Virus record (IMG/VR): IMGVR_UViG_2778261169_000006
DNA length: 8,336 bases
Strand: one strand, 5' to 3'
Source: a virus
Lineage: Duplodnaviria > Heunggongvirae > Uroviricota > Caudoviricetes
Shown here: one piece after another, positions 3,001-6,000 of the stretch
How the letters are laid out: every line of letters starts with the position of its first letter
Numbering within the stretch: the stretch's first letter is position 1
Made by a program: the position numbers

Positions 3001-6000
3001 AGCGAAGGTCTTGCAGGAATGCTTAACAATAACTTTTTCTTTTGAGGAGTAAAATATGGGCCGCGCCAATCCTTTATATGGAGCTAATTTTACAGATTCA
3101 AGAATGCCTATTTTTTATCCGTACCCTGGGTTAACTGATGGGTCTCTTGGGTTGCTGGATGCTTATGAAGTGGATGAAAATTTTAATTTATCAGCGACAG
3201 GTACTGATATATCGACAACGCCAAATTTAGCCGCGATTCCAGCCGCCACTTTAACTGGCGTATCGCAGGCTGATTTGGCCTTTAAGTATTCAAACACACT
3301 TGGTAGCACTGAAGTTAAGTTTGAGAGAACACCAAAGCTTGGTATTCATGGCATAGTCTCTCAGGTCAATCAGGTATCTGGCCACCTGGCCCGGTTCCGC
3401 TGCCCTGGCATCCTGCCGTACGTTGTTGCACATCAGAATGATCATCAGTTCGCAGTGTTTGTGCATCATCGTATTACTCGAGATAAGCCGTCATCGACGA
3501 ACCAGAACCCTGTAGAAGTGTTGATGTCGCATAACTCAGCTCCATCTAATAATAAGTTGCTGATTGCCAGTCTGGATGGAGGGTTGACGGGTAATCCAGC
3601 CCTGAAATCTCAAGCGTCAGCAAAAACAGGCACAGATATGGCTGTCGCAACTGCCTACTACGACCATATGGTTTGGGGGTCACCTAGCGGTTTCGGTACG
3701 CTACTGAACAATTTGTGTCGTTCATACGTCCTTTACAGATGGCATTTTATCGATCTCACTGCAGCAGGTATGACCATGGCAGAGGCCACGGCGTCTGAAC
3801 AGGATATCTTTAACAGGCGATTCAGTTCAGGCGGGAAGTACTATGGCGACACGATCCCAACAAATCCGTCTACCTTTCCGTAGCAGCTATTGATCTGCCT
3901 TTAAAGTGCAACCGCTGTATATAAAAACAGTATATGGGAGGGCAGATCATGCTTCGACAGTCAGACATCGCCGCGGCTTTCCGCGAGTCGGTATTGCGCA
4001 ACTCCAAAGGTTTTCAGTACCTGCACACAAAGGATTTTGTGTCAGCGCTGCGCCGGCGTGGGCTGCACTTTACCGACTCAGAGGCTAATGCGTGGATATC
4101 AAGAGAGCAGACGTACTTTGTCGACAAAACCACCGACCATAGCGAAAACCGTTTGTGGATGCTGGCGAACATGGGGAGGGTTTTGTAATGGGCTTTCCTT
4201 CACCGGCGTCTGACTACGTTGAACAGCGTCTGTCCGTTAACTCGATCTGCAATGTCGGCCCTAACACCCGCGTTTTCGAAAGGGATGGCGGTTATGTTGT
4301 GCTGGATATCTCCCTGAAGCCAAAGCAGGGTAGTCAGGTTCTTATCCAGCACGGCGGCGGGACGGAACTTGCCACGTTGAGAGGGCGGTCGCTGATAACC
4401 GAAGATGGCGAAGCGATCGAGGGCGAAGCCCTGGACGATGTTACTGTCATCGGGGTCGTGACATTTACTATCTGCGATGTTCGTTCTGATAATTCTATTA
4501 TTTAATTGGGGTATATATGGCGCTGAAGCTATTAGCCAATAATAACGCAAAGAGTGTGCTCGCTGCGGGTATTAGCGCGTCCGCTACCGTTATTACCGTG
4601 GGTACTGGAGCGGGGTCTTTATTCCCTTCCCCTGTATCTGGGCAGAGTTATTTCAAATTAACGATAACCGACGCGGCCACGAAAACAATTTCTGAAATTA
4701 TGCACGTAACGTCTGTATCCGGTGACGTGATGACAGTAATTCGTGGTCAGGAAGGAACTACGGCACGCGTATGGTCAACGAATGACATTGTCGCGAATTT
4801 AATGACCGCCGGATCATTGTTATCTTTCCTGCAGATCAGCAATAACCTGTCAGAAATTAAAGATGCCGGTGAGGATGCGATAAATGAAGCCCGTTATAAC
4901 CTCGGAATATCTGATTCCTCTGGTTTTGTCGGGCGTTCACTTGGCGCTCCAAAAGCTTTCTATGCAAACGGAACCTATACGCGATCTCCTCTGGCCCGTT
5001 ATGCAAAAGTAACGTTGACCGGTGCCGGTGGCGGCGGTGGCGGCTGCCAGGCCTCCAACAATACAGAAACCTTCTCCGGTGCTGGCGGCGGCGCGGGCGC
5101 GACCATTATCGTATGGGTTGACCTGTCTGCTGCCAGTTCTGATGACTACCCGCTGAAGTGAAAATTGTGTTGTGTACCAAATTGCGTACCAAACTAAAAT
5201 CACAAATCATGAAACCTTGGTTCATGGCGGTTCTCAGGGGTGTTGCTGAACCGTGTTGATACATCAACTGCACCTGATATTGAGTGGCCGGAAGAACCAG
5301 ACACAATGTAAGCGAAAAAGAAAAACCGCAGACACGACGTATGCAGGACGTGCTGCGGTTGGCTGGTGAACTTTCGATAGTGCGAGTATTGAATGATTTC
5401 CAGCCGTTACCGATTTTACGTGTTTATTAGTGAACAAACCACTCGTCAGCAGACTCCCAGGTATCTTTCAGAGTCTCCTGAACAAATGTTTTTGCAGAAT
5501 CTTTATCTGCGGTGCGTGTAACAGAAAGCCCATCGTTGCTGGTGGCTTTTACGATCACCTCTACATCGTCATAACGTTTACTGATGCGTCGGGTTAATTC
5601 TTCCTTTAACGCATCCACAGCACCGTTTGGCATTTTAGTCATTTTTTCTTTGGCTATGCAGATCTCAATACGCATAAAAGTCCCTCTATACTGTGTTTGT
5701 ATACAGTATTATTTTTAACTGTATGGATAAACAGTGTCAAGAGGTCTTATTTCTGCTCCTTTGGAGCTCTTCAAAACGATTATGTAAAGATTTCGGATAC
5801 AGTTCGGTATATACCTGCCATAGCACGTTTAATGAACGATGCCCTGTAACCTGAGCGACTTCCTCAATACTAAAACCAGCCTCAAATAAGCGACTTGCCC
5901 CTTCTCTACGCAAATCATGGTATCGCAGATCTTTAATACCTAATTTGCTTCTTACCCTCTGAAATCCTGCAGTAACAGAAGTGCTGTTATATGGAAAAAT

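What the first reader, a model, noticed from the sequence alone, without database searches (positions are those of the whole stretch)
4188..4505. UmuD'-like protein that starts at the UmuD cleavage junction and appears to lack the catalytic Ser/Lys dyad
Seen: the protein begins M-GFPSPASDYVEQRLSVN, which by my recollection of E. coli UmuD is 13/17 identical to the first residues of UmuD' (the product of RecA-stimulated cleavage at Cys24/Gly25). The C-terminus (DDVTVIGVVTFTI) also resembles UmuD. In my manual alignment the positions of the GDSM serine and the partner lysine are occupied by other residues. Established knowledge: UmuD is inactive in Pol V until cleaved to UmuD'; phage P1 HumD is a pre-truncated UmuD' analogue. 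Inference: this protein would bypass the RecA-dependent activation checkpoint, or act as a UmuD' or repressor-domain decoy. The divergent core suggests it is not simply a P1 humD copy.
Basis: partly seen in the sequence, partly recalled or inferred. Interest (0 to 1): 0.7.

Follow-up and report, generated by a model that had tools for sequence, protein, structure and literature searches.

The report
Ready-made UmuD′ subunit without protease site
A prophage gene, switched on by DNA damage, encodes a shortened copy of the bacterial mutagenesis protein UmuD′ that is made already "activated" and has lost its self-cutting site, so it most likely lets the error-prone polymerase Pol V assemble without its usual activation step.

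Summary
Window 4188-4505 (+) encodes 105 aa starting M-GFPSPASDYVEQRLSVN, 13/17 identical to the start of E. coli UmuD′. Profile alignment to UmuD/HumD covers the full length (99.1%, E 1e-18). The stretch holding Ser60 is deleted and Lys97 aligns to Ala. The AlphaFold model best matches UmuD′.

It is not an isolated oddity. It belongs to a phage-specific family (PHROG 3469, about 105 aa, nearly all starting MGFPSPA) that shares a C-terminal tail with P1 HumD. The gene is the second of a two-gene operon. An exact LexA box (3915-3930) precedes a 79-aa winged-helix-like gene (3949-4188), whose stop overlaps the start (TAATG). This cassette recurs in Klebsiella, E. coli, Cronobacter, Erwinia and Pantoea phages. 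Both genes are under purifying selection (dN/dS about 0.1).

The same short core, without the arm and without the 79-aa gene, sits directly upstream of a 422-aa UmuC homologue in phage CobraSix and 62 of 78 related loci.

Best reading: an SOS-induced, cleavage-independent UmuD′ analogue that works with host UmuC. Decoy and regulator roles are not excluded. It is a new variant of a known kind (HumD-like).

The parts
3915..3930 (+). Exact LexA (SOS) box CTGTATATAAAAACAG, 19 nt upstream of the orf79 start codon
   Evidence: three CTGT-N8-ACAG sites in the window against 0.10 expected. An exact box at the same relative position is present in 56 of 75 close IMG/VR loci and in RothC, phiES15, EhrS_59, AH07 and mEp390. 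No sigma-70 promoter was called over it by the simple scan, so the promoter itself is not mapped.
3936..3942 (+). Shine-Dalgarno sequence GGGAGGG for orf79
   Evidence: Read directly from the sequence; 6 nt before the ATG at 3949.
3949..4188 (+). orf79: 79-aa partner gene (PHROG 3893, unknown function), predicted winged-helix-like fold
4173..4180 (+). Shine-Dalgarno sequence GGGGAGGG for the UmuD′-like gene, inside the end of orf79
   Evidence: Read directly from the sequence; 7 nt before the ATG at 4188.
4186..4190 (+). TAATG stop/start overlap (translational coupling of orf79 and the UmuD′-like gene)
   Evidence: TAATG or TGATG is found at this junction in all 75 close loci examined.
4188..4505 (+). 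Short-core UmuD′-like protein, 105 aa: UmuD′-type N-terminal arm (residues 2-18), S24-type beta core without the Ser60 loop and Lys97, and an acidic/hydrophobic C-terminal tail
   Evidence: homology and alignment; model pLDDT 77; best PDB matches are UmuD′ 1I4V, 1AY9 and 1UMU, TM 0.59-0.65; dN/dS is 0.105 overall and 0.054 in the arm.

Best explanation
The gene encodes a phage-type, ready-made UmuD′. After removal of the initiator Met (expected before Gly, established knowledge), the protein starts at the same Gly as RecA-cleaved UmuD′. It keeps the UmuD′ arm, the first helix and the last strand. It has lost the protease loop and the catalytic Lys, which are useless once no cleavage is needed.

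It is transcribed with a 79-aa winged-helix-like partner from a LexA-repressed promoter. DNA damage therefore switches it on directly.

Most likely mechanism (inferred): it binds a UmuC-type Y-family polymerase, here the host's UmuC, and puts its arm next to the polymerase active site. This would give a Pol V-like translesion enzyme as soon as LexA is cleaved, without the slow RecA*-dependent UmuD-to-UmuD′ step. This is what was shown experimentally for P1 HumD.

Shown here: homology, fold, loss of the dyad, the LexA box, operon structure, purifying selection, and operon linkage of the same core to UmuC in related phages. Inferred: binding to host UmuC, dimerisation, the effect on mutagenesis, and the role of orf79.
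For: 1. Full-length homology to UmuD/HumD (hhalign 99.1%, E 1e-18; HumD model E 5e-12) and a UmuD′-like predicted fold.

2. The arm is 13/17 identical to E. coli UmuD′ and is the most constrained part of the gene (dN/dS 0.054). In the published AlphaFold Pol V model, one UmuD′ arm inserts between the palm and little finger of UmuC, with its N-terminus near the active site. That paper also cites experiments in which an armless UmuD′, or a change to the first residue, impaired mutagenesis (PMC11791011 and PMC12926913).

3. An exact LexA box precedes the operon here and in distant relatives, as it does for humD in P1 (annotated).

4. A graded series links it to HumD. P1 HumD keeps Ser and Lys. 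HK639 has Thr and Met at those positions. P0258 has a partial deletion. The short family has the full deletion. All share the tail DDxP[VI][IM], which is absent from UmuD.

5. The same short core (same deletion, same ITEDGExIEG motif and tail) lies directly upstream of a 422-aa UmuC homologue (Pfam IMS, E 1.6e-42). The two overlap at TGATG and follow a LexA box. This is seen in phage CobraSix and in 62 of 78 related IMG/VR loci.

6. Both genes are under purifying selection (dN/dS about 0.10). The family is phage-specific: 119 phage records and about 10 plasmid-collection records at 60% identity or more, the best of them a 5.4-Mb chromosome-sized record.
Against: - No umuC is in the window or in the complete phages that carry this form, such as RothC. 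Use of host UmuC is therefore an assumption.
- In the Pol V model, the C-terminal carboxylate of UmuC sits beside UmuD′ S36/T71/K73 and E69 (UmuD S60/T95/K97/E93). Here these positions are deleted/E60/A62/G58. The canonical contact cannot be kept.
- The UmuC-linked relatives lack the arm and lack orf79, so they are not exact models of this protein.
- The obligatory 79-aa partner has no counterpart in Pol V, and its role is unknown.
- No experiment on any member of the short family was found in the searchable literature.
Confidence: 0.55

Rival explanations
1. Dominant-negative or decoy role. The protein keeps the arm and the dimer-forming elements but lacks the cleft that holds the UmuC tail. 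It might bind host UmuD, UmuD′, UmuC or RecA unproductively. That would damp Pol V mutagenesis, or relieve the UmuD2C replication checkpoint, during prophage induction.
For: The parts best conserved with UmuD′ are the arm, helix 1 and the last strand. The modelled UmuC-tail contact residues S60/T95/K97/E93 are lost. UmuD arm variants alter inhibition of RecA-mediated recombination, and Cys34 cross-links to RecA (PMC5342242). A LexA-controlled DinI-like gene, a RecA-filament binder, lies beside it.
Against: The same short core is operon-coupled to UmuC homologues in many phages, which argues for a productive partnership. The relative HumD complements UmuD′ (McLenigan et al. 1999, from my knowledge; the paper was not held). 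The UmuD residues that contact the RecA* groove (Y52, 54, F94, D91, E93) are not conserved (R28, F30, T59, G56, G58).
Confidence: 0.2
2. SOS-to-phage signalling module. orf79 (winged helix) and the dyad-less S24 core act together as a non-cleavable, split LexA/CI-like regulator or antirepressor that couples LexA cleavage to prophage induction.
For: LexA-controlled small genes outside the immunity region, often next to dinI homologues, are antirepressors in Gifsy, 186 and N15 phages (PMC3121763). In phiES15 the repressor is a 134-aa HTH-only protein with no S24 domain. The only exact LexA box in its 40-kb genome is in front of this cassette, and its record says it was UV-induced. A winged helix plus an S24 domain is the domain make-up of LexA (established knowledge).
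Against: RothC, mEp390, AH07 and CobraSix repressors have Peptidase_S24 domains by Pfam, and RothC's keeps GDSM and a Lys. EhrS_59 is annotated with a 220-aa CI that I did not test. These phages should need no antirepressor. orf79 shows no similarity to Gifsy GftA (hhalign 0.2%). Its third helix carries a conserved EANxWI motif, which is not a typical DNA-reading surface. An arm identical to host UmuD′ has no explanation in this model. An identical cassette occurs in prophages at different integration sites.
Confidence: 0.1
3. A decaying, non-functional remnant of a umuD or humD gene.
For: The catalytic residues are lost and there is no Pfam hit.
Against: dN/dS is 0.105 over 65 distinct alleles. 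Length and start are conserved in relatives down to 26-35% identity. The Shine-Dalgarno sequence, the translational coupling and the LexA box are all conserved.
Confidence: 0.02

Closest known systems
Bacteriophage P1 HumD (also N15 gp26, phiKO2 and HK639 UmuD-like proteins)
   Same: Phage-encoded and synthesised without the UmuD leader, starting MGFPSPA. LexA box immediately upstream. No cognate umuC. Shares the C-terminal tail DDCPVI. Often sits between the tail-fibre genes and int.
   Different: P1 HumD is 129 aa and keeps the Ser-containing loop (ADSH) and the Lys. The window protein is 105 aa with that loop deleted and Ala in place of Lys. It is only 35% identical to HumD and scores below the HumD equivalog cut-off (45.9 against 120 bits). 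HumD has no orf79-type partner gene.
E. coli UmuD′ (Pol V accessory subunit; PDB 1UMU, 1AY9, 1I4V)
   Same: N-terminal arm 13/17 identical. Same fold in the model (TM 0.59-0.65). SOS-regulated.
   Different: UmuD′ is produced by RecA*-stimulated self-cleavage of UmuD at Cys24/Gly25, using Ser60 and Lys97. Here there is no leader and no dyad. The residues that contact the RecA* groove (Y52, F94, D91, E93) are not conserved. An extra C-terminal tail is present.
Short-core UmuD′-like plus UmuC operon of Enterobacter phage CobraSix (gp29-gp30) and related prophages
   Same: Same core deletion, same LITEDGExIEG...GVxT motif and acidic-Pro-hydrophobic tail. 42% identical over residues 13-95. LexA box upstream. 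Same genome slot between tail fibres and int.
   Different: The CobraSix protein lacks the GFPSPA arm, has no orf79, and is translationally coupled to its own 422-aa UmuC homologue.
Bacillus subtilis YqjX/YolD, non-proteolytic UmuD analogues
   Same: Small accessory subunits of Y-family polymerases. They have a beta-barrel plus an N-terminal arm proposed to insert into the polymerase, with no self-cleavage (PMC12926913).
   Different: No detectable sequence relationship was tested or claimed. They are Gram-positive, operon-linked to their polymerase, and modelled as monomers.
LexA-controlled antirepressors (Gifsy GfoA/GftA, 186 Tum, N15 AntC)
   Same: A small LexA-controlled gene outside the immunity region, near a dinI homologue.
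   Different: No sequence similarity between orf79 and GftA. Most phages carrying the cassette have repressors with an S24 domain.

Membership tests
Peptidase S24 (LexA/UmuD/CI self-cleaving proteases) | S24-type beta fold | tested here: met
   AlphaFold model (pLDDT 77.2). The best PDB matches are UmuD′, the LexA C-terminal domain and the lambda CI C-terminal domain.
Peptidase S24 (LexA/UmuD/CI self-cleaving proteases) | Nucleophilic Ser in the G-D-S-M loop | tested here: not met
   The loop is deleted in MAFFT and hhalign alignments. No Ser is conserved in the family core.
Peptidase S24 (LexA/UmuD/CI self-cleaving proteases) | General-base Lys (UmuD K97) | tested here: not met
   K97 aligns to Ala62. 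No Lys is conserved in the family.
Peptidase S24 (LexA/UmuD/CI self-cleaving proteases) | Scissile Ala/Cys-Gly bond preceded by a leader or DNA-binding domain | tested here: not met
   The protein starts at the residue after the cleavage site, Met-Gly. The start is fixed by the Shine-Dalgarno sequence, the TAATG coupling and family-wide MGFPSPA starts.
Peptidase S24 (LexA/UmuD/CI self-cleaving proteases) | Pfam PF00717 above the gathering score | tested here: not met
   No Pfam hit at E <= 0.1.
UmuD′-type accessory subunit of Pol V | Conserved N-terminal arm GFPSPAxDYVE beginning at the cleavage-site Gly | tested here: met
   13/17 identity. The arm has the lowest dN/dS, 0.054.
UmuD′-type accessory subunit of Pol V | Full-length homology to UmuD and HumD | tested here: met
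   hhalign 99.1%, E 1e-18; HumD model E 5e-12; phrog_811 E 1.6e-11.
UmuD′-type accessory subunit of Pol V | LexA (SOS) control | tested here: met
   An exact, conserved LexA box at sequence level. LexA binding and regulation were not tested experimentally.
UmuD′-type accessory subunit of Pol V | Genetic or physical association with a UmuC-type polymerase | tested here: inconclusive
   No umuC in the window or in RothC. The armless form of the same short core is operon-coupled to UmuC homologues in CobraSix and in 62 of 78 loci. Physical binding is not testable here.
UmuD′-type accessory subunit of Pol V | Homodimer; supports UmuC-dependent mutagenesis | not testable with these tools
   Needs multimer modelling, biochemistry or complementation.
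HumD (NCBIfam NF051876, equivalog) | Score above the curated cut-off | tested here: not met
   45.9 bits against a cut-off of 120.
HumD (NCBIfam NF051876, equivalog) | Pre-truncated start and C-terminal tail DDCPVI | tested here: inconclusive
   The start is met. The tail is present in most of the short family but degenerate in the window protein (SDNSII).
PHROG 3469 ('UmuD-like protein', phage family) | Full-length profile match | tested here: met
   E 1.2e-46; residues 1-103 on profile positions 1-103 of 106.
LexA-controlled antirepressor (Gifsy/186 type) | Homology to a known antirepressor; host phage repressor not cleavable | tested here: not met
   orf79 against GftA: 0.2% probability. 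Four relatives have S24 repressors by Pfam, and a fifth (EhrS_59) is annotated as CI but was not tested. Only phiES15 has an HTH-only repressor. The window does not include its own immunity region.

The most novel reading that the evidence does not exclude
orf79 could be a previously unrecognised extra subunit. Together with the dyad-less, arm-bearing UmuD′ it might reprogram the host's UmuC into a phage-specific mutasome. The winged-helix protein would replace the lost catalytic-cleft contacts with the UmuC C-terminus, or tether the complex to DNA or RecA. A naturally minimised UmuD′ (no protease loop, no RecA*-groove residues) with a separable partner would show which parts of UmuD′ are really needed for Pol V activation.
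Probability: 0.2. Interest if true: 0.7.

Novelty: new variant of a known kind. Interest (0 to 1): 0.5.

Why it matters
- UmuD cleavage is the timing device that keeps error-prone Pol V as a last resort. A widespread prophage gene that supplies a pre-cleaved subunit under direct LexA control would make lysogens mutagenic earlier in the SOS response. The cassette is present in 132 of 5426 complete E. coli genomes and in many Klebsiella prophages. This bears on stress-induced mutagenesis and the evolution of antibiotic resistance.
- The family is also a natural deletion experiment. It separates the arm, the dimer elements and a new acidic hairpin and tail from the protease cleft and the RecA*-contact residues. 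That gives a direct test of current Pol V mutasome models.
- It flags a conserved 79-aa partner of unknown function.
- It corrects database names. 'S24/S26 family peptidase' is wrong in the catalytic sense. 'DNA polymerase V' for the 80-aa protein is unsupported.

Tried and rejected
- Pfam on the 105-aa protein: no hit.
- PADLOC defence models for both cassette proteins and their neighbours: none.
- orf79 against the Gifsy-2 antirepressor GftA and against the CobraSix UmuC homologue: no similarity. orf79 is therefore neither a known antirepressor nor a UmuC fragment.
- The apparent natural fusion P0172 (orf79 plus UmuD′-like, 187 aa) looks like a frameshift artefact, because its middle part no longer aligns with orf79.
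- P0165 (UmuD-type leader on a short core) might have sat next to umuC. Its neighbour is an aconitase gene.
- Locus search with the family alignment failed because no stretch was conserved enough.
- The HumD paper (PMC94175) is not held, so what is said about HumD function rests on my knowledge of its abstract.
- The simple promoter scan did not call a sigma-70 promoter over the LexA box.
- Plasmids were searched for a short-core plus umuC pair: the short form is almost absent there.
- The window's own immunity region could not be examined. No genome in the E. coli collection carries this exact mosaic.
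Full report
**Observation**

It runs from ATG 4188 to a stop ending at 4505, 105 codons. A strong Shine-Dalgarno sequence (GGGGAGGG, 4173-4180) lies 7 nt upstream of the start. The ATG overlaps the TAA of an upstream 79-codon ORF (TAATG, 4186-4190).

After the initiator Met the protein reads GFPSPASDYVEQRLSVN. 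This is 13/17 identical to UmuD residues 25-41, checked against the PDB chains of UmuD and UmuD′. The similarity is not chance:
- phmmer against PDB gives UmuD at E 6.7e-5.
- The NCBIfam UmuD model matches residues 2-22 alone at E 1.3e-7.
- The HumD model matches residues 1-101 at E 5e-12.
- PHROG 3469 ('UmuD-like protein') matches over the full length at E 1.2e-46.
- A profile-profile alignment of 35 family members against UmuD/HumD/HK639 gives 99.1% probability, E 1e-18, over 106 columns.

**Catalytic dyad**

MAFFT alignments with three different sets of sequences agree with the hhalign alignment. A 10-12-residue deletion removes the UmuD segment around G-D-S60-M. UmuD Lys97 aligns to Ala62. 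Across 35 members at 26-92% identity to the window protein, the only invariant or nearly invariant residues are M1, G2, F3, S5, P6, D9, G48, G74 and G89. There is therefore no alternative Ser/Lys pair. Pfam Peptidase_S24 does not detect the protein.

The AlphaFold model has mean pLDDT 77. The arm (residues 1-20) has low confidence, as expected for a flexible arm, and the core scores 75-90. Its best PDB matches are UmuD′ (1I4V, 1AY9, 1UMU; TM 0.59-0.65), followed by the C-terminal domains of LexA and lambda CI.

**Genomic setting**

The window is the right end of a lambdoid prophage integrated at E. coli dusA. In order it contains:
- tail-fibre genes;
- an exact LexA box (3915-3930);
- orf79 (3949-4188);
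- the UmuD′-like gene (4188-4505);
- a glycine-rich tail-fibre-like ORF;
- a DinI-like gene on the minus strand with two further exact LexA boxes;
- the integrase, then dusA and pspG.

Three CTGT-N8-ACAG sites occur in the window, against 0.10 expected.

The two-gene cassette is conserved.
- In 75 close IMG/VR loci the stop/start overlap is always TAATG or TGATG, and 56 carry an exact LexA box about 275 nt upstream of the UmuD′-like start.
- 61 of 74 loci keep an intact 79-codon upstream ORF.
- The same arrangement (LexA box, an ORF of about 80 codons, an ORF of about 107 codons, between tail-fibre genes and int) is found in Klebsiella phage RothC, Cronobacter phiES15, Erwinia vB_EhrS_59 and Pantoea AH07.
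- In coliphage mEp390 the orf79 homologue exists but is not annotated.
- In these phages the UmuD′-like protein is only 38-51% identical to the window's, and orf79 is 28-37% identical.

Both genes evolve under purifying selection. dN/dS is 0.105 for the UmuD′-like gene and 0.101 for orf79, and the arm is the most constrained segment at 0.054.

**The family**

The large protein search found 721 clusters, mostly from Klebsiella. The exhaustive search found 214 representatives at 50% clustering. The full-length ones are mostly about 104-109 aa, and most of those start MGFPSPA. The family is phage-specific. It occurs in 119 phage records and in 132 of 5426 complete E. coli genomes. It is almost absent from plasmids, where the hits are HumD of P1/N15-like phage-plasmids or true umuD.

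Database names are 'hypothetical protein', 'S24/S26 family peptidase', 'UV protection protein' or 'DNA polymerase V subunit UmuD'.

**Relation to HumD**

Alignment A2 shows a graded series:
- P1 HumD keeps the Ser loop (ADSH) and the Lys (IKRY).
- The HK639 protein keeps the loop but has Thr and Met at those positions.
- P0258 has a partial deletion.
- The short family has the full deletion.

HumD and the short family share a C-terminal extension that UmuD lacks: acidic residues, then Pro, then [VI][IM] at the C-terminus. In the window protein this tail is degenerate (SDNSII). The LexA box is annotated in front of humD in P1 and is present in front of the HK639 gene.

The simplest history is that once a phage gene encodes the already-cleaved form, the protease site is no longer selected and decays.

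**Link to UmuC**

Enterobacter phage CobraSix carries a LexA box in the same genome slot. It is followed by a 101-aa protein with the same core deletion, the same LITEDGExIEG...GVxT motif and a DDNPVM tail. That protein is 42% identical to window residues 13-95. A TGATG overlap joins it to a 422-aa UmuC homologue (Pfam IMS E 1.6e-42, IMS_C, DUF4113).

Of 78 related IMG/VR loci:
- 62 have the full UmuC-like ORF immediately downstream;
- 9 are cut by the contig end;
- 73 have a LexA box within 150 nt upstream.

A second, 96-aa variant shows the same linkage. These UmuC-linked forms lack the GFPSPA arm and have no orf79. The CobraSix protein has a single Lys, at position 4, so it cannot carry a catalytic dyad. 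The short core is therefore a genuine, non-proteolytic partner of UmuC-type polymerases in phages.

**Mechanism**

The published AlphaFold model of the Pol V mutasome makes two relevant placements (PMC11791011 and PMC12926913).
- One UmuD′ arm lies between the palm and little-finger domains of UmuC, with the very N-terminus next to the active site. That paper cites experiments in which an armless UmuD′ dimerises but does not support mutagenesis. It also cites that removing or changing the first residue has a pronounced effect.
- The last five residues of UmuC form an extra strand on the UmuD′ sheet.

The window protein reproduces this arm and, after Met removal before Gly (established knowledge), its exact N-terminus. 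The arm is the most strongly conserved segment. With LexA control and the HumD precedent (complementation of UmuD′ and binding to UmuC and RecA; McLenigan et al. 1999, from my knowledge, paper not held), the best explanation is a cleavage-independent UmuD′ analogue that uses host UmuC. It would remove the RecA*-dependent delay in Pol V activation when the prophage's host suffers DNA damage.

The UmuD residues that contact the RecA* groove during cleavage (Y52, residue 54, F94, D91, E93; PMC9926225) align to R28, F30, T59, G56 and G58. This is consistent with no need for RecA*-assisted processing.

**Caveats and rivals**

In the Pol V model the C-terminal carboxylate of UmuC contacts UmuD′ S36/T71/K73 and E69, which are UmuD S60/T95/K97/E93. 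These positions are deleted or changed here. The canonical cleft contact cannot be kept, although the CobraSix-type operons show the short core still pairs with a canonical UmuC.

Three rival readings were considered.
- A dominant-negative or decoy role remains possible (about 0.2).
- An SOS-to-induction signalling role is suggested by phiES15. Its repressor is HTH-only, and its only exact LexA box precedes this cassette. Against this, the RothC, mEp390, AH07 and CobraSix repressors have S24 domains by Pfam, and EhrS_59 is annotated with a 220-aa CI. orf79 is also unrelated to the Gifsy antirepressor GftA. I put this reading at about 0.1.
- A pseudogene is excluded by the selection analysis.

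**Comparison and novelty**

The closest known protein is P1 HumD, but the window protein fails the HumD equivalog threshold and differs in three ways: a deleted protease loop, a shorter core, and an obligatory coupled partner gene. It should not be filed as an S24 peptidase in the catalytic sense, because Ser, Lys, the scissile bond and the Pfam threshold were all tested and not met.

It works like, and is homologous to, UmuD′/HumD. Membership as a functional Pol V subunit is supported by the arm, full-length homology, the LexA box and UmuC linkage in relatives, but not by any binding or genetic test. I found no paper describing the short family, its partner gene or the armless UmuD′-UmuC phage operons in the searchable library.

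Verdict: a new variant of a known kind, of moderate interest.

Noticed in passing
window 5427-5675 (-), 5691-5706, 5719-5734, 5711-5740: A DinI-like gene (Pfam DinI, E 1.2e-19) has a sigma-70-like promoter (TTGACA-18-AAAAAT) and two exact LexA boxes. This is a second SOS-controlled unit next to the cassette. In mEp390 a DinI-like gene and the cassette diverge from one shared LexA box (L005 3721-3736).
   Followed up: partly
L098 2636-4248 (phage CobraSix); L099-L166, L171-L177: An operon consists of a LexA box, an armless short-core UmuD′-like protein (96-101 aa, no dyad), and a 422-aa UmuC homologue with a TGATG overlap. It is present in 62 of 78 IMG/VR loci. I found no description of it in the searchable literature.
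   Followed up: yes
C-termini of family members and of P1 HumD (L004 1501-1887); window 4479-4502: HumD and the short family share a C-terminal tail (acidic residues, Pro, then a hydrophobic C-terminus, e.g. DDCPVI, SDDDIPIM, DDSPF) that is absent from UmuD. From memory it resembles the SSB C-terminal tip DDDIPF. In the window protein it is degenerate (SDNSII), and it is the least constrained segment (dN/dS 0.20).
   Followed up: partly
L091 6862-7266 (-), L087 2221-2236 (phage phiES15): The phiES15 repressor is a 134-aa HTH_3-only protein without an S24 domain. The only exact LexA box in its 40-kb genome precedes the orf79 / UmuD′-like cassette. The record describes the phage as UV-induced.
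   Followed up: partly
L005 3762-4001 (+) (phage mEp390, JQ182729): An orf79 homologue (79 aa, start MPRQLDIRAAF) is not annotated. A minus-strand ORF (3795-3923) is annotated in its place.
   Followed up: yes
P0391-P0406: NCBI names the 80-aa Erwinia and Pantoea orf79 homologues 'DNA polymerase V'. They show no similarity to UmuC and match no NCBIfam model. The name is probably carried over from the neighbouring gene.
   Followed up: partly
L094 2958-3383 (protein P0165): An orphan chromosomal gene combines a UmuD-type leader with an intact Cys/Gly site (..LFSDSMQC/GFTSPAADY..) and the short, dyad-less core. Its C-terminus is aberrant. It lies beside a LysR regulator and an aconitase gene, with no umuC nearby.
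   Followed up: partly
window 1-5423 versus 5425-8336: The window is a mosaic. Positions 1-5423 are 99.7% identical to a prophage at the Qin site of E. coli NZ_CM136177. The integrase-dusA end matches dusA-integrated prophages of other strains. No complete E. coli genome in the collection has this exact combination.
   Followed up: partly
window 4517-5161 (+): A glycine-rich, tail-fibre-like ORF (214 aa; Pfam Gly_rich_2 just below threshold) starts 12 nt after the UmuD′-like stop. It is shorter than its RothC counterpart (348 aa), so it is probably truncated at the mosaic junction. It may be co-transcribed with the cassette.
   Followed up: no
window 31-3045 (+) and 3056-3883 (+): A 1004-aa tail-fibre protein has a prophage tail-fibre N-terminal domain and a C-terminal region with a GDSL-like motif (LLLIGDSLFG; called an SGNH/GDSL hydrolase in a related genome). 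It is followed by a 275-aa protein of unknown function (PHROG 18370).
   Followed up: no
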